From a phage: a stretch of 64,000 bases of DNA. The translations under genes and the position numbers were made by a program. This document shows, in pieces, positions 14,102 to 61,769 of this stretch. The stretch's first letter is position 1. Each line of letters opens with the position of its first letter. Below the pieces are notes generated by a model that was given only the letters and a program-made list of their open reading frames with translations, made no database searches and had not been told where the DNA came from. The stretch lies in NCBI GenBank assembly GCA_011911785.1, contig GCA_011911785.1_4084.1; one strand, 5' to 3'.

Positions 14102-14595
14102 TGTTTGAATTTCCTGATGAACAACCAAAAAACTACATTGACTGTACTGAAGATGGATACACGCATATCAATATCTACAGTAAAGGGAAAACTAAGCTAG
14201 GGAGAGATTTATCTAATTTTTCTCCCCATAGCTTTACACTAGAACCATATGGATGGTTTCCTTCGGTTGAGTCTTTTTATTTCTGGTTCCTCACTGGACA
14301 ACAGCATGAAGAACTTAGAAAGGTATCAGGAGCCGCAGCGAAAGCCGCTGCAAACAAATATATGCATGACCGTATAGAGATGACACCTGAGCGATTAAAT
14401 GTAATCCAGGATGCGATATGTGCTAAAATAATGCAGAATCCTGAACTTGCTGAACGATTGCGTAAAAGTACTCTGAAGTTTGAGCATTATTATTTGTATG
14501 GTGGTAAGATTATTGATGTTAGTGATGACCACCGTTGGTTTGTTCAGACCTTTGAGGATATCAGAACAGTACTGAAGGAGATGAATAATGGATAA
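14101..14595 (+). CDS. NADAR-domain protein (YbiA-like)
   Basis: SNF...F...S.E..Y core and C-terminal KF..ELAERL..EHY pattern resembling E. coli YbiA. Confidence 0.55.
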   Translation: MFEFPDEQPKNYIDCTEDGYTHINIYSKGKTKLGRDLSNFSPHSFTLEPYGWFPSVESFYFWFLTGQQHEELRKVSGAAAKAAANKYMHDRIEMTPERLNVIQDAICAKIMQNPELAERLRKSTLKFEHYYLYGGKIIDVSDDHRWFVQTFEDIRTVLKEMNNG

Positions 14596-14863
14596 AGTGA
14601 AAATTTGTTGTCTTGAATGTGAGATGTTTGTCACTCCGTCTGATACAATGTTGACAATAGAGGAACAAGTCTTTCCATTAAGAGGTGGCTATATAAAATT
14701 ACCAACACCATTTTATAGTACATCTTGTTCAATATGTGGTAATGAACTTGTTCTTCATGAGTTGAATCACGTTAATATTATGGTTGTAAATGCAATTAGT
14801 TCGTATGCAAAAGAATTGGTTAGAAATGACAGTTCATTTGCACATTTATGGGGTTTCAACTGA
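14588..14863 (+). CDS. zinc-ribbon small protein
   Basis: Two CxxC pairs (CCLECEM / CSICGNE). Confidence 0.5.
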   Translation: MDKVKICCLECEMFVTPSDTMLTIEEQVFPLRGGYIKLPTPFYSTSCSICGNELVLHELNHVNIMVVNAISSYAKELVRNDSSFAHLWGFN

Positions 14864-29891: not shown

Positions 29892-29929
29892 AATAAATAG
29901 TTACCTATAGATTAATCTAAGGAGTAACT

Positions 29930-30280
29930 ATGTTTAAAAGTAATCTTAAAGTAGAATTAATTAATAACGAAGGTCAACGTTGGAAAGTTCTAGAAGATCT
30001 AGAATACGAGTATAACGGTATTAAAATTGTTGTTCCCGCAGGTTTCAAAACTGATTTTGCAAGCGTCCCACGTATTCGTGGTATATTTGAACTAGTCGGT
30101 AATATGGGTCACGCCGCAGCAACAATACATGACTACTTGTATAGTACTGGTATGCTATCCCGTAAAGATAGTGATAAGGTGCTACTACAGGCTCTACGTG
30201 CTACTGAAGTTGGTAAGCCACGTAGTATGATTATGTATGCTGGTGTTCGTGTATTCGGTTGGTTGTTTTACAAAAAATAA
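29930..30280 (+). CDS. hypothetical protein (116 aa)
   Basis: RBS ctaaggagtaactATG; FKTDFASVPR...HDYLY motif. Confidence 0.6.
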   Translation: MFKSNLKVELINNEGQRWKVLEDLEYEYNGIKIVVPAGFKTDFASVPRIRGIFELVGNMGHAAATIHDYLYSTGMLSRKDSDKVLLQALRATEVGKPRSMIMYAGVRVFGWLFYKK

Positions 30281-31464: not shown

Positions 31465-32464
<1,000 letters not shown>

Positions 32465-32474
32465 TTAAAAAAAG

Positions 32475-33412
<938 letters not shown>

Positions 33413-59448: not shown

Positions 59449-59880
59449 ATGTGGGTTAACGTTAATAGTACTGAACTTAATGAAATTGATATCTTTGCAT
59501 TTGTTAATCTGGAAACTGATACCTTTGTTCGTGGACGTTTGTTCATGAGTTCTGCCTGTGTTCGCAGTATTGCAGTTATGGATGAACTCGGTCAGGTAAT
59601 TGAGTGCCTACCATTACCTGCATGGGCATATAGCAGTACTGAAGAAGATGTAATGCATAAGATCTTTGAAGGGATCAATAAGCTACCAGGTGCAGATGTG
59701 AAGAATAAGATATTCAACATTGAGAATAAGAACTACAGTGCAGATGTACTGCGTCCTTTAGTTGATTCAGTACTGCAAGCTGCATTAGCTAAACCTAAGT
59801 GCATTATTTTAAAGTACATTCCAGAACTTTCCCTAACTAAAGAGGATATGAAAGGATTTATATTCTCATCGGAGTTGTGA
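59449..59880 (+). CDS. hypothetical protein (143 aa)
   Basis: ORF. Confidence 0.55.
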   Translation: MWVNVNSTELNEIDIFAFVNLETDTFVRGRLFMSSACVRSIAVMDELGQVIECLPLPAWAYSSTEEDVMHKIFEGINKLPGADVKNKIFNIENKNYSADVLRPLVDSVLQAALAKPKCIILKYIPELSLTKEDMKGFIFSSEL

Positions 59881-60104
59881 TGAAAAGGTATAAAATTGAA
59901 TACCTACTTAAAGTAAGAGAGAAAAGTATTAGTAGTGAGAAATACACCAGTGAGATATTCGTCAGAGATGAGTATTACATTGGTGAAAATGAAGTTGAAG
60001 TACTGTTACAATGCATAGAAAATGAATTTCGAGATATGACACGTTATATGTCATTTGAGATATCGTGTGCAAAAGTTACATTCTTGAACAATACTTCATA
60101 TTAA
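59877..60104 (+). CDS. hypothetical protein (75 aa)
   Basis: ATGA overlap. Confidence 0.5.
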   Translation: MMKRYKIEYLLKVREKSISSEKYTSEIFVRDEYYIGENEVEVLLQCIENEFRDMTRYMSFEISCAKVTFLNNTSY

Positions 60105-60108
60105 AAAA

Positions 60109-60140
60109 GGGTTGACTTTTGTTGACCCTTTTTGCTATTC
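60109..60140 (+). promoter_or_regulatory. composite terminator-promoter module
   Basis: Hairpin GGGTTGAC-TTTT-GTTGACCC then TTTTT; TTGACT in 5' arm; TATTCT/TATAAA -10 candidates. Confidence 0.6.
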
Positions 60141-60187
60141 TATAAATATGACATAGAGGTAACATTTAATAATCTATGGAGAAAAAA

Positions 60188-61726
60188 ATGCCAGATAATT
60201 TTAAATCAAAAAGTGGGGCAACACTTTCTGGACATTCGGAGAAATGGGCTGAAAAAAATCGTCGCCAATCAAGTCATGACGCAGGTCAAGGTTCCCGTGG
60301 CTCTCGCAACCAAGGAACGGGAGAAGCGGGGAAAGCAAACACAGTTGCATCACAGGGTCTTGATACTTCAAACATGTCCCAGCATGAAAAATTGAAGTAC
60401 TTCAATAGTCTTGGTCTTTTAAATCCGCAGCAGAAGCAACAACTTGCTGCTCTGGATAAAGCACAAGAACAACCTAAAGCAGCACCTGAAGCACCTGCAC
60501 AGCCTAAAGCGGCTAATCCGGTAAAAGAACTAAGTGATAAACTTGGGAAGATCTTTGCTAACAAACCACAACTAATTCAAGGTATCGTAAAAGCACTTCA
60601 AGCGGTTCCTAAAGAACAACTCAAGGATAAAGCACAAGCTGTTCTTGATAGTATGAAAGGGAATACCAGTACTGAACCAACTGAAGTATTCAGTACTATC
60701 ATGCGTGCACTTGAAGGTAAGCCACAGGCTGATGATGATATTGAGTTTGATGAACCTGCACAAGAAGTAGCAAATCTTGACTCAATCGTTTCTACATTTG
60801 GAAAAATTGGTGCAGAAGATAAGACTAATGCACAACAAGTTAAGAATGTACAAGCTAAGTTACAAAATCGTCTTGAAGGTAAAGATGAAAAGATTAAACT
60901 TGCAGCAGATGCGTTGAAGAAAGCATTAGAATCATATAAACCTGGTGAGAAATCTCGCTTCATTACTGCAATGAATGCAGTATTCGGTGCAATGAAGAAG
61001 TATGAAGCTGAACACGGTGAGAAAGTAACTCCTGATGGATATCTCCTTCGCAAAGATGAAGAAGGTGCTGTTGACCAGAAGAACGCTGAACCAGACTATA
61101 GTGATTTACCGGATACAGTTGATATGGATGGATACATTCATCGTCCTGATATGCAAGAATTTGGTTCAGACAAAGAAGGTTTTGAACATGCTATGGCTGT
61201 GTACAAAGCATTAGTCGATAATCCACAATATGCAAATAGTTTTGTAGATGAGTTTGATAGTGCATGGAACAACTACCAAGACAAAGGATATGATTTCCCA
61301 GCAGAAGCAGCATTCTTTGAACTAGGTAAACTTCTTGCTAAAAATGGTATTAATGTTGGTTCTAATGGTGAAGCAAACACTTCGGAAATGGACGCTGAAT
61401 TGGCTAAAGATCGTAAAATGACTGATAAGTCAATTCATGAACTACAAAAGCTAATGATGTGGATTGCTGAAATTGGCAAGAAAGCTGGTGCAGATCCTAA
61501 GAGCATTAACAGCAATATTAGTTGGATTAAACATAAGGTTGATAACAATGCCCGTAAATTACAAAAGGCATGGACCGACCTAGTGAATGGTGCAGACGAT
61601 GTTGATATCGATTCACCAGAAGCATACGAGTACGCATTGAACACACTTGATAACTCTTTCCAGGATTACGAAAATGGTAACGTAACTGATTGGGAAAAGG
61701 ATATCATGCATAAGTACGGTAAATGA
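60188..61726 (+). CDS. large low-complexity K/E/A/Q-rich protein (about 512 aa)
   Basis: Start taken as ATG 60188 (RBS ggagaaaaaaATG); Gly/Ser/Gln-rich N-terminus, PKAAPEAPAQPKAANP repeat-like stretch; locally higher GC. Confidence 0.6.
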   Translation: MPDNFKSKSGATLSGHSEKWAEKNRRQSSHDAGQGSRGSRNQGTGEAGKANTVASQGLDTSNMSQHEKLKYFNSLGLLNPQQKQQLAALDKAQEQPKAAPEAPAQPKAANPVKELSDKLGKIFANKPQLIQGIVKALQAVPKEQLKDKAQAVLDSMKGNTSTEPTEVFSTIMRALEGKPQADDDIEFDEPAQEVANLDSIVSTFGKIGAEDKTNAQQVKNVQAKLQNRLEGKDEKIKLAADALKKALESYKPGEKSRFITAMNAVFGAMKKYEAEHGEKVTPDGYLLRKDEEGAVDQKNAEPDYSDLPDTVDMDGYIHRPDMQEFGSDKEGFEHAMAVYKALVDNPQYANSFVDEFDSAWNNYQDKGYDFPAEAAFFELGKLLAKNGINVGSNGEANTSEMDAELAKDRKMTDKSIHELQKLMMWIAEIGKKAGADPKSINSNISWIKHKVDNNARKLQKAWTDLVNGADDVDIDSPEAYEYALNTLDNSFQDYENGNVTDWEKDIMHKYGK

Positions 61727-61735
61727 TAAAAAAAG

Positions 61736-61769
61736 AGGTTGACTTCGGTCAGCCTTTTTTGCTATAATA
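61736..61769 (+). promoter_or_regulatory. composite terminator-promoter module
   Basis: Hairpin AGGTTGAC-TTCG-GTCAGCCT then TTTTTT; TTGACT in 5' arm; TATAAT at 61764..61769. Confidence 0.65.

What the first reader, a model, noticed from the sequence alone, without database searches (positions are those of the whole stretch)
60188..61726. Large low-complexity protein with locally elevated GC
A roughly 512-aa K/E/A/Q-rich protein has a Gly/Ser/Gln-rich N-terminus and a PKAAPEAPAQPKAANP stretch, in a segment that reads GC-richer than its neighbours. It could be a disordered internal or ejected protein, a scaffold, or a horizontally acquired gene.
Basis: partly seen in the sequence, partly recalled or inferred. 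Interest (0 to 1): 0.4.

Follow-up and report, generated by a model that had tools for sequence, protein, structure and literature searches.

The report
Jumbo-phage virion protein, late-expressed
This gene encodes a known but functionally uncharacterised particle protein of RaK2-like giant phages; its raised GC comes from its amino-acid make-up, not from foreign origin, so the finding is largely ordinary.

Summary
The ORF is real: 60188-61726, + strand, 512 aa. The GC rise is also real: 39.7% against 34.6%, the GC-richest 1.5-kb stretch of the window. But GC3 (26.7%) and synonymous codon usage (z +0.95) are native. Amino-acid composition alone predicts 39.4% GC (Ala 2.7x, Gln 1.8x, Pro 1.6x). 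Horizontal acquisition is therefore rejected.

The protein is only locally low-complexity (about aa 74-116). About 21% is predicted disordered; the rest is helical.

It is the orthologue of RaK2 gp275, 121Q gp201 and phAPEC6 gp035c (PHROG 20398, E 4e-192). The family has been found by mass spectrometry in purified virions of RaK2, phAPEC6 and CBB.

New here:
- The "low-complexity" N-terminal 78 aa is the family's most conserved part. A Pro-rich linker and a four-helix domain follow it.
- The acidic helical C-terminal modules are mosaic, and absent in CBB/GAP32.
- The gene sits between two terminators and carries the window's only T4-type late promoter (TATAAATA; about 10 expected). It lies within an early region holding 17 sigma-70 promoters.
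- 121Q gp199 is a truncated paralogue.

Function is unknown. I infer a head-internal protein (about 0.4); a shell-bound cement or decoration protein is the main rival.

The parts
60104..60133 (+). Upstream intrinsic terminator. A 13-bp stem with a 4-nt loop is followed by a U-run. It ends the preceding early transcription unit. The stem contains a TTGAC -35-like element.
   Evidence: terminator scan; dG -16.1 kcal/mol, z -6.1, 0 of 200 shuffles fold as well
60141..60148 (+). T4-type late promoter motif TATAAATA, 40 nt upstream of the start codon. It is the only copy on either strand in the 64-kb window.
   Evidence: 1 found against 10.1 +/- 3.1 expected.: the same motif lies 46-53 nt upstream of the orthologue in A4, 121Q and phAPEC6, and upstream of the paralogue gp199/gp037c.: in the 121Q structural module, 7 of 7 copies lie co-oriented 17-57 nt upstream of late genes, including the major capsid protein and the scaffold. 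121Q gp591 is a late sigma factor. The CBB paper reports ATAAATA before structural genes.
60178..60181 (+). Shine-Dalgarno GGAG, 6 nt before ATG 60188
   Evidence: read directly from the sequence; GGAG is conserved in A4, 121Q and phAPEC6
60188..61726 (+). CDS of 512 aa plus stop. It encodes a virion structural protein of RaK2-like jumbo phages, the orthologue of A4_214, 121Q gp201, phAPEC6 gp035c and RaK2 gp275.
   Evidence: PHROG 20398, E 3.9e-192; 97% nt identity to phage A4; virion proteomics
60188..60421 (+). N-terminal signature segment, aa 1-78. It is basic (pI about 9.8) and rich in Gly, Ser, Asn, Gln and Arg. It is predicted disordered up to about aa 60 and ends in the helix EKLKYFNSLGLL. 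This is the most conserved part of the family.
   Evidence: invariant G15 H16 W20 R25 S29 A32 G33 G35 S36 R40 N41 G43 T44 G45 G48 T60 M63 K68 Y71 F72 L75 across 25 sequences from several genera.: Salmonella phages match only aa 1-78.: pLDDT about 50.: pI.
60422..60517 (+). Genuinely low-complexity linker, aa 79-110. It is Q-rich, then runs QPKAAPEAPAQPKAA. Its length and sequence vary between homologues.
   Evidence: entropy minimum at aa about 92; variable, gapped columns; pLDDT below 55
60518..60718 (+). Small four-helix domain, aa 111-177. It completes the N-module that exists as a stand-alone 153-186 aa virion protein in CBB, GAP32, fHe-Yen9-04 and 7t3.
   Evidence: helices 111-122, 127-139, 142-158, 164-176; pLDDT 81-88; PHROG 16530
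60719..61723 (+). Acidic all-helical C-terminal extension, aa 178-512, made of three modules: about 178-300, 301-400 and 401-512. It is mosaic among relatives. The middle module is missing in phAPEC6-type proteins. Other modules are inserted in JNE01/UB and RaK2. The whole extension is absent in the short forms.
   Evidence: alignment with large block indels; pLDDT 73-93; net charge -24 for aa 178-512; long forms pI 4.6-5.6
61731..61760 (+). Downstream intrinsic terminator. Its stem carries the -35 element of the next gene's sigma-70 promoter (TTGACT-N18-TATAAT, 61739-61768).
   Evidence: (dG -16.7 kcal/mol, z -5.4)

Best explanation
Shown: The gene encodes a conserved component of the phage particle in RaK2-like jumbo phages (Asteriusvirus and relatives). 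It is a native gene. Its higher GC is a by-product of an Ala/Gln/Pro/Gly/Lys-rich protein, because GC3 and codon usage are typical of the genome.

Shown: The protein is modular. An invariant, basic N-terminal segment of 78 aa is predicted to be unstructured on its own. A variable Pro/Ala/Gln linker and a small four-helix domain follow. Together these form the family's core N-module, which occurs alone as a virion protein of about 170 aa in other genera. The Asteriusvirus and Alcyoneusvirus proteins add swappable, acidic, all-helical modules after it.

Shown at sequence level: The gene is an insulated monocistronic unit in the order terminator, TATAAATA, SD, ORF, terminator. It sits inside a long block of early genes driven by sigma-70 promoters.

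Inferred: The gene is transcribed late by the phage gp55-like sigma factor, together with the capsid genes. The N-module is the part that secures incorporation into the particle, and the C-terminal modules are cargo.

Inferred with the lowest confidence (about 0.4): The protein lies inside the head with the DNA. It could be a constituent of the inner body seen in 121Q and phAPEC6, or an ejected protein, by analogy with the T4 internal proteins.
For: Family and virion presence:
- PHROG 20398 'virion structural protein', E 3.9e-192.
- 97% nt identity and synteny with phage A4, and orthology to 121Q gp201, which is annotated as structural.
- Mass spectrometry on purified virions: RaK2 gp275 gave 20 unique peptides and 34.3% coverage, second only to the tail sheath (PMC3622015 Table S3). 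phAPEC6 gp035c gave 8 peptides and 28.8% (PMC7247149). CBB_38, which is the N-module alone, gave 9 peptides and 56.6% (PMC5259590).

Native origin:
- GC1 is 0.571 (z +2.1) while GC3 is 0.267 (z -0.2).
- Codon-usage z is +0.95.
- GC expected from the amino acids is 0.394 against 0.397 observed.

Architecture:
- Alignments A1 and A2.
- AlphaFold models.
- Short stand-alone forms.
- The paralogue 121Q gp199 / phAPEC6 gp037c, hhalign probability 98.8%, E 6.5e-17. It is itself detected in virions.

Late expression:
- A single TATAAATA in 64 kb against 10.1 expected.
- The motif is conserved upstream of orthologues.
- All 7 copies in the 121Q structural module precede late genes, including the major capsid protein and the scaffold, and a late sigma gene is present.
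- The window holds 17 perfect TTGAC-N17-19-TATAAT sites, all on the + strand, against 0.65 expected.
- Terminators flank the gene.

Internal location (indirect):
- 121Q and phAPEC6 contain a phiKZ-like inner body of unknown composition (PMC5646251; PMC7247149).
- The short forms are small, basic (pI about 9-9.6) and abundant, like the T4 internal proteins.
- A conserved N-terminus with a hyper-mosaic C-terminus mirrors the targeting-sequence-plus-cargo design of T4 internal proteins (established knowledge).
- The gene lies outside the head-gene cluster.
Against: - No experiment localises the protein within the particle. Mass spectrometry shows presence, not position.
- No T4-type targeting sequence is present. 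No L/I-x-E site occurs in the first 100 aa. The first [LIV]xE, the invariant PVKE|LSD at aa 111-117, is conserved only in the long forms.
- The full-length protein is acidic (pI 5.2), unlike the classical basic internal proteins.
- There is no sequence or fold similarity to the phiKZ inner-body proteins or to any solved structure.
- 121Q and phAPEC6 capsids also carry several unassigned decoration proteins that this family could equally be.
- Late transcription is inferred from motifs, not measured.
- No virion proteome exists for this particular phage.
Confidence: 0.7

Rival explanations
1. The protein is a shell-bound cement or decoration protein of the T=28 capsid, on the outer or inner face. 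The invariant N-terminal arm becomes ordered on the major capsid protein lattice. The variable helical modules project away, in the manner of adenovirus protein IX or the jumbo-phage minor capsid proteins.
For: - An invariant segment that is predicted disordered is typical of arms that fold only on a conserved partner.
- Peptide counts are high.
- 121Q and phAPEC6 maps show at least two unassigned decoration densities (PMC5646251; PMC7247149).
- T4 hoc and soc also lie outside the head-gene cluster (established knowledge).
Against: - Exposed decoration domains are usually beta-rich or Ig-like, not acidic helical bundles.
- The paralogue gp199, which lacks the Gly-rich arm, is still found in virions.
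Confidence: 0.25
2. The protein is a tail, neck or 'hair'-associated component, for example an anchor for the whisker fibres seen on 121Q, phAPEC6 and CBB.
For: The hair and whisker proteins are unassigned. The variable C-terminus would suit a host-facing structure.
Against: - The family is present in RaK2 and GAP32, for which hairs were not reported.
- The short forms, about 170 aa, cannot build 119-nm hairs.
- The gene lies far from the tail genes.
- The helical acidic modules are unlike known fibre folds.
Confidence: 0.08
3. The protein is a scaffolding or assembly-only protein that is removed from the mature head.
For: Its K/E/A/Q-rich, acidic, all-helical composition resembles T4 gp22-type scaffolds.
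Against: - hhalign probability against the 121Q gp22-like scaffold gp602 is 0.2%.
- The bona fide scaffold of phAPEC6 gives only 2 peptides and 4.9% coverage, whereas this family gives 8-20 peptides and 29-57% coverage in mature virions.
Confidence: 0.03
4. The gene is foreign and was acquired horizontally, which would explain the GC-rich island.
For: It is the GC-richest 1.5-kb stretch of the window.
Against: - GC3 is below the window mean.
- Codon usage is native.
- The GC is fully predicted by the amino-acid composition.
- The gene is conserved and syntenic in all RaK2-like genera. It was found in only 33 clusters among 1.84 billion representative proteins, all from this phage group as far as they are identified.
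Confidence: 0.02
5. The protein is a non-structural DNA-handling protein that merely co-purifies with particles. phAPEC6 annotates its orthologue as 'chromosome segregation protein / SMC-like'.
For: The phAPEC6 annotation. phAPEC6 virion preparations also contain SSB and a RecA-like protein.
Against: - The annotation rests on an E = 0.039 hit.
- There is no Pfam, NCBIfam or PDB support.
- Mass spectrometry detected the protein in RaK2, phAPEC6 and CBB preparations from different laboratories, and the 121Q orthologue is annotated as structural. Peptide counts are high in RaK2 and CBB.
- The gene has a late promoter like the capsid genes.
Confidence: 0.04

Closest known systems
RaK2 gp275 / 121Q gp201 / phAPEC6 gp035c / K64-1 homologue (PHROG 20398, 'virion structural protein')
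   Same: Orthologous over the full length, at 42-75% aa identity (95-97% to phage A4 and to metagenomic P0001). The N-module, the C-terminal module, the genomic neighbourhood and the late promoter are all shared. Mass spectrometry detected RaK2 gp275 and phAPEC6 gp035c in virions; 121Q gp201 is annotated as structural.
   Different: The complement of middle modules differs. phAPEC6 lacks aa about 300-400. JNE01/UB and RaK2 carry an extra module of about 90 aa. The first 33 aa of the window protein are of a different 'allele' from A4's. None of these proteins has an assigned function.
CBB_38 / GAP32_032 / fHe-Yen9-04 g015 / 7t3_0190 (PHROG 16530, short virion structural protein)
   Same: Homologous to aa 1-177, with the same invariant signature (RNQGTG...DTSKM.PEEKLKYF.SLGLL), the linker and the four-helix domain. 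CBB_38 was detected in virions with 57% coverage.
   Different: These are stand-alone proteins of 153-186 aa. They are basic overall (pI about 9-9.6) and have no acidic C-terminal extension.
T4 internal proteins IPI/IPII/IPIII and Alt (capsid-targeting sequence plus cargo)
   Same: They work alike in outline (inferred). They are abundant non-shell virion proteins, encoded away from the head-gene cluster and expressed late. A conserved N-terminus is joined to a highly variable remainder. The short forms are small and basic.
   Different: - There is no sequence homology.
- There is no 10-aa targeting peptide ending in L/I-x-E.
- The conserved N-terminal part is 78-177 aa long and, in CBB, is retained in the mature particle.
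- The long form is acidic.
phiKZ inner-body proteins (gp89/90/93/95/96/97)
   Same: 121Q and phAPEC6 have a phiKZ-like inner body on bubblegrams. This family has a paralogue pair (gp199 and gp201), as the inner-body families do.
   Different: There is no detectable sequence or fold similarity. There is no evidence of S/A/G-x-E processing. Association with the inner body is untested.
T4 gp22-type scaffolding protein
   Same: Helical, acidic and K/E/A/Q-rich in composition.
   Different: It is not homologous (hhalign probability 0.2% against 121Q gp602), and it is retained in mature virions.

Membership tests
RaK2-like virion structural protein family (PHROG 20398 / 16530) | Significant full-length profile match | tested here: met
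   PHROG 20398 matched with E 3.9e-192 over aa 5-403 and a second stretch. PHROG 16530 matched with E 6.9e-48 over aa 5-181. 68 homologues were found by phmmer.
RaK2-like virion structural protein family (PHROG 20398 / 16530) | Invariant N-terminal signature (GH..W..R..S..AG.GS...RN.GTG..G ... T..M....K..YF..L) | tested here: met
   All 21 invariant columns of alignment A2 are present in the window protein.
RaK2-like virion structural protein family (PHROG 20398 / 16530) | Physical presence in purified virions | not testable with these tools
   Shown by mass spectrometry for the RaK2, phAPEC6 and CBB orthologues, and by annotation for 121Q. No proteome exists for this phage.
RaK2-like virion structural protein family (PHROG 20398 / 16530) | Conserved genomic position and late-promoter motif upstream | tested here: met
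   Synteny with A4 and 121Q. TATAAATA lies 46-53 nt upstream in the window, A4, 121Q and phAPEC6, with AATAAATA in RaK2 and CATAAATA in 7t3.
T4-type internal head proteins (CTS-bearing: IPI-III, Alt) | Short N-terminal capsid-targeting sequence ending in L/I-x-E, cleaved by the gp21-like prohead protease | tested here: not met
   No [LIV]xE occurs before aa 112. The site PVKE|LSD is invariant only in the long forms and is absent in the short forms. By contrast, the 121Q major capsid protein has LTE|S at aa 41-43, which fits the reported 42.2 to 37 kDa shift.
T4-type internal head proteins (CTS-bearing: IPI-III, Alt) | Sequence homology to IPs or Alt | tested here: not met
   No Pfam, PHROG or NCBIfam hit other than its own family.
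T4-type internal head proteins (CTS-bearing: IPI-III, Alt) | Location inside the capsid and ejection into the host | not testable with these tools
   Requires protease-protection, bubblegram or immunolabelling, or infection assays.
phiKZ-type inner-body proteins | Sequence or fold similarity to phiKZ gp89-97 | tested here: not met
   The profile search of 1.84 billion representatives returned only 33 clusters, all of its own family. BFVD and PDB fold searches returned only its own family or generic helical bundles. The phAPEC6 authors report no similarity of any phAPEC6 protein to phiKZ inner-body proteins.
T4 gp22-like scaffolding proteins | Homology to the phage's gp22-like scaffold, and removal from mature heads | tested here: not met
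   hhalign probability 0.2% against 121Q gp602. Orthologues are well covered in mature virions.
SMC / chromosome segregation proteins (the phAPEC6 annotation) | SMC or ABC-ATPase head domains, or a long antiparallel coiled coil | tested here: not met
   No Pfam hit passes threshold in the window protein or in 23 homologues. The model shows short helical bundles, not a long coiled coil.
Horizontally acquired genomic island | Deviant GC3 or synonymous codon usage relative to the host genome | tested here: not met
   GC3 z -0.2. Codon-usage z +0.95. GC explained by amino-acid composition, 0.394 expected against 0.397 observed.
Intrinsically disordered / low-complexity proteins | Most of the chain is low-entropy or predicted unstructured | tested here: not met
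   Only 21% of residues have pLDDT below 50. Low-entropy windows are confined mainly to aa about 74-116. 24 helices are predicted.

The most novel reading that the evidence does not exclude
The family could be the long-sought protein of the inner body, or an ejected effector carrier, of RaK2-like jumbo phages. On this reading the invariant basic 78-aa N-terminus plus the four-helix domain form a new, uncleaved capsid-packaging and DNA-binding module. This module would be unrelated to the T4 targeting sequence and to the phiKZ inner-body proteins. Lineage-specific acidic helical cargo modules would be shuffled onto it by recombination and delivered into the host with the DNA.
Probability: 0.3. 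Interest if true: 0.6.

Novelty: new member of a known kind. Interest (0 to 1): 0.25.

Why it matters
As it stands, this is a routine re-identification. The gene is a near-identical copy of a catalogued virion protein gene, and its compositional oddity has a trivial cause.

Modest value lies in four points that the literature I could search does not state:
- The apparently low-complexity N-terminus is the invariant signature of a family confined to RaK2-like phages.
- The protein is an N-terminal core module with recombining C-terminal modules.
- The gene is a solitary late-promoter unit inside an early-gene block.
- 121Q gp199 / phAPEC6 gp037c is a truncated paralogue.

Together these make the family a concrete, testable candidate for the unidentified inner-body or internal proteins of 121Q-type phages. 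They also allow two database corrections: 'chromosome segregation protein' in phAPEC6 and 'hypothetical protein' in A4.

Tried and rejected
- Pfam, NCBIfam and PDB sequence searches, with single sequences and with profiles, gave nothing above threshold.
- A profile HMM search of 1.84 billion representatives, run to find remote relatives, returned 33 clusters, all of the same family.
- Comparison with the 121Q scaffold gp602 and the head protein gp600 showed no relationship.
- tblastn for paralogues of the protein, and of 121Q gp199, within the window found none.
- A conserved prohead-protease site was sought. Only PVKE|LSD is invariant, and only in the long forms, so processing cannot be claimed.
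- Literature searches for a localisation or a structure of RaK2 gp275 or its homologues found only mass-spectrometry lists. The phAPEC6 supplementary peptide lists are not held.
- The hair or whisker hypothesis was considered and set aside, because the family is present in phages not reported to have hairs and the short forms are too small.
Full report
CONTEXT. The window is 34.65% GC and is almost entirely transcribed on the + strand. The region of the finding is 97% identical at the nucleotide level to Escherichia phage A4 (Asteriusvirus, 355 kb). It is about 78-82% identical to 121Q, PBECO4, phAPEC6 and other RaK2-like jumbo phages. Gene order matches A4 and 121Q.

OBSERVATION CHECK.
- The ORF listing gives an ORF at 60176-61726 of 516 aa. 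The conserved start is ATG 60188 (MPDNF...), 6 nt after GGAG. The upstream ATG is out of frame in A4.
- Composition is K 10.9%, A 11.1%, D 8.6%, E 7.8%, G 6.8% and Q 5.9%, with no Cys.
- The stretch QPKAAPEAPAQPKAANP is present at aa 95-111.
- GC is 0.397 against 0.3465. That places it in the 99.94th percentile of all 1539-bp windows, and the window-wide maximum lies inside this gene. Against non-overlapping windows z is about +3. The first 330 bp reach 0.455.
- The compositional observation is therefore real and non-random.

WHY THE GC IS HIGH.
- By codon position, GC1 is 0.571 (z +2.1, rank 2 of 82 ORFs of at least 100 aa) and GC2 is 0.350 (z +1.1). GC3 is 0.267 (z -0.2), slightly below the mean.
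- I computed a synonymous-codon log-likelihood against the pooled usage of the other 124 + strand ORFs, calibrated by simulation. It gives z = +0.95, so the gene uses the genome's preferred codons at least as well as average.
- Back-translating the protein with the window's codon preferences predicts GC 0.394 against 0.397 observed. For the first 110 codons the figures are 0.439 against 0.455.
- The excess GC is thus a consequence of Ala (2.7-fold above the window proteome), Gln (1.8), Pro (1.6), Gly (1.5) and Lys (1.5), and of depletion of Ile, Tyr, Val and Phe.

WHAT THE PROTEIN IS.
- Pfam, NCBIfam and PDB sequence searches are negative.
- PHROGs gives phrog_20398 'virion structural protein' (E 3.9e-192). 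The first 181 aa alone match phrog_16530 'virion structural protein' (E 6.9e-48).
- A search of 5.8 billion proteins finds 68 homologues. Where they are named, they all come from RaK2-like phages, or from contigs of about 350 kb labelled E. coli.
- Published virion proteomes contain the orthologues:
  - RaK2 gp275 (64.1 kDa) gave 20 unique peptides and 34.3% coverage. Only the tail sheath, with 21, gave more peptides (PMC3622015 Table S3; locus).
  - phAPEC6 gp035c gave 8 peptides and 28.8% coverage (PMC7247149 Table 1; locus).
  - 121Q gp201 is annotated as structural.
  - CBB_38 gave 9 peptides and 56.6% coverage (PMC5259590 Table 4; locus).
- The 'check virion proteomics' request is therefore answered positively for relatives, though not for this phage itself.

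ARCHITECTURE.
- Alignment of 23 long forms (A1) and 25 N-modules from several genera (A2) shows four parts.
- (i) aa 1-78. It has 21 invariant positions (G15 H16 W20 R25 S29 A32 G33 G35 S36 R40 N41 G43 T44 G45 G48 T60 M63 K68 Y71 F72 L75). Salmonella phages 7t3, Munch and SE_PL match the query only here. It is basic (pI 9.2-10.4 in all members). AlphaFold predicts no confident structure for aa 1-60 (pLDDT about 35-52).
- (ii) aa about 79-110. This is a linker that is truly low in complexity (Q-rich, then P/A/K/E). It varies in length and sequence.
- (iii) aa 111-177. This is a four-helix domain with pLDDT 81-88.
- Parts (i) to (iii) form the complete protein in Mimasvirus (CBB, GAP32), Eneladusvirus (fHe-Yen9-04) and 7t3-like phages. 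There it is 153-186 aa long with pI about 9-9.6.
- (iv) aa 178-512. This part consists of three acidic helical modules with pLDDT 73-93. They behave as cassettes. The phAPEC6-type proteins lack aa about 300-400. JNE01/UB, several metagenomic forms and RaK2 carry an extra module of about 90 aa. Alcyoneusvirus proteins have a different middle region.
- Overall, 21% of residues are predicted disordered. The rest form 24 helices. 'Large low-complexity protein' is therefore an overstatement.

A PARALOGUE. In 121Q and phAPEC6 the gene two positions upstream (gp199 / gp037c, 128 aa) is itself a virion protein detected by mass spectrometry, with 5 peptides and 48% coverage. It aligns to the N-module from the DTSKM...KYLDSLGLL helix through the four-helix domain (hhalign probability 98.8%, E 6.5e-17). 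It lacks the Gly-rich first 55 aa or so. The window and A4 lack this paralogue. A 75-aa ORF (59877-60104) occupies its place.

TRANSCRIPTION UNIT.
- The gene is bracketed by strong hairpin terminators at 60104-60133 (-16.1 kcal/mol, z -6.1) and 61731-61760 (-16.7 kcal/mol, z -5.4).
- Between the first terminator and the SD lies TATAAATA (60141-60148), the T4 late-promoter consensus. It occurs once in the whole 64-kb window on either strand, against 10.1 +/- 3.1 expected. The shorter ATAAATA is also depleted, with 7 on the + strand and 2 on the - strand against about 22 expected on the + strand.
- The motif is at the same place upstream of the orthologue in A4, 121Q and phAPEC6, and also upstream of the gp199/gp037c paralogue. 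RaK2 has AATAAATA and 7t3 has CATAAATA.
- In a 50-kb stretch of the 121Q structural module, all seven TATAAATA copies are co-oriented with a gene start and lie 17-57 nt upstream of it. The genes are the major capsid protein, scaffold, two baseplate-hub genes, endonuclease VII, a structural protein and the operon containing GroES and a structural protein. The stretch also encodes a 'sigma factor for late transcription'.
- The CBB paper independently reports ATAAATA before structural genes, and a gp55-like sigma factor.
- By contrast the window contains 17 perfect TTGAC-N17-19-TATAAT promoters, all on the + strand, against 0.65 expected. It is therefore an early region read by host RNA polymerase.
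- The gene thus appears to be a solitary late unit embedded among early genes. This is an inference from motifs. No transcript data were available.

WHAT IT DOES. Structure-based searches were uninformative.
- Foldseek against the PDB with the N-module gave no hit with E below 0.1.
- BFVD returned only the family's own uncharacterised members.
- A profile search of 1.84 billion cluster representatives found only 33 clusters. The family is therefore confined to this phage group.

The following is shown:
- The protein is a conserved particle component. It was abundant in at least RaK2 and CBB.
- The N-module alone suffices for virion presence (CBB_38).
- The C-terminal part is dispensable and recombining.

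My inference is that the N-module mediates incorporation and the C-terminal modules are cargo.

For location I favour the head interior, with probability about 0.4, for four reasons:
- 121Q and phAPEC6 contain a phiKZ-like inner body whose proteins are unknown.
- The short forms are small, basic and abundant, like the T4 internal proteins.
- A conserved N-terminus joined to a hyper-variable remainder is the design of T4 internal proteins, whose cargo evolves under host-defence pressure (established knowledge).
- Ejection proteins are typically helical (established knowledge).

Several points count against this:
- There is no T4-type targeting peptide or early L/I-x-E site. The phage's protease, however, probably uses L-x-E, since the 121Q major capsid protein has LTE|S at the position that explains its 42.2 to 37 kDa shift.
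- The long form is acidic (pI 5.2).
- 121Q-type capsids carry several unassigned decoration proteins.

A shell-bound cement or decoration role is therefore a serious rival, at about 0.25. In that case the invariant arm would fold on the capsid lattice.

Other roles are weak or refuted. These are tail or hair association, scaffold (hhalign probability 0.2% against gp602), SMC-like 'chromosome segregation protein' (an annotation based on E = 0.039) and foreign origin.

COMPARISON AND NOVELTY. The gene is a member of a catalogued family (PHROG 20398 / 16530), with a near-identical copy in GenBank annotated 'hypothetical protein' (A4_214). It is not a member of the T4 internal-protein, phiKZ inner-body, gp22-scaffold or SMC families, because defining features of each were tested and not met. 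It may nevertheless work like a T4 internal protein.

The following appear not to be described in the papers I could search:
- the invariant N-terminal signature;
- the layout of a core module plus cassettes;
- the paralogy with gp199;
- the solitary late promoter.

These are incremental points.

VERDICT. The ORF, the composition and the GC rise are real, but the protein is not globally low-complexity. A virion protein is supported; an HGT origin and a scaffold role are rejected; an internal or ejected location remains open. Novelty is 'new member of a known kind', and interest is 0.25. The most novel reading still open is that the family builds the inner body, or carries ejected cargo, through a new uncleaved packaging module (probability about 0.3, interest 0.6 if true).

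Noticed in passing
window 60158-60292 (vs L001 5975-6116): Against phage A4, a sharply bounded divergent patch of about 135 bp sits inside otherwise near-identical DNA. It covers the 5'UTR downstream of the late promoter plus codons 1-35. This is a recombination mosaic. Two 'alleles' of the first 33 aa (MPDNFKSKSGATLSGHSEKW... and MPGKFTDKNGGNMAGHSDKW...) recur in different lineages of the family.
   Followed up: partly
window, whole (e.g. 8969, 10176, 15363, 32476, 32885, 51460, 61739, 62687): There are 17 perfect sigma-70 promoters (TTGAC-N17-19-TATAAT), all on the + strand, against 0.65 expected. Identical 28-nt copies lie at 32476 and 32885. Several share the tail CAGTACTGTATAAT. This marks the window as an early-gene block.
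   Followed up: partly
window 29893-29900 and 31495-31502: Two intergenic AATAAATA sites, the RaK2-type variant of the late motif, lie 31 nt and 81 nt upstream of ORFs 29930-30280 and 31582-31842. ATAAATA is otherwise strongly depleted, with 7 on + and 2 on - against about 22 expected on the + strand. These two ORFs might be further late-expressed genes in the early block.
   Followed up: no
L002 5027-5410 (121Q gp199) and L003 1848-2231 (phAPEC6 gp037c); absent from window 59449-60104: A 128-aa virion protein encoded two genes upstream in 121Q and phAPEC6 is a truncated paralogue of the N-module (hhalign probability 98.8%). It has its own TATAAATA. The window and A4 lack it and carry an unrelated 75-aa ORF (59877-60104) in its slot.
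   Followed up: yes
window 60104-60141 and 61731-61768: The intergenic cassettes combine a terminator hairpin whose stem contains TTGAC with a downstream -10 element. Terminator and early promoter therefore overlap. Upstream of the virion gene the -10 is degraded to TATTCT and the late motif follows it directly.
   Followed up: partly
homologues P0013-P0040: Many homologues are deposited as 'Escherichia coli' proteins on contigs of 347-354 kb. These are complete jumbo-phage genomes sitting unrecognised inside bacterial assemblies.
   Followed up: no
L003 2501-3754 (phAPEC6 gp035c): The public annotation 'chromosome segregation protein (SMC / SbcC-type)' rests on an E = 0.039 hit. It has no Pfam, NCBIfam or structural support and looks like a mis-annotation.
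   Followed up: yes
L005 (CBB 14240-14758) and fENko-Kae01: In CBB and fENko-Kae01 the short-form gene lies within the direct terminal repeat, so it is present twice per packaged genome.
   Followed up: no
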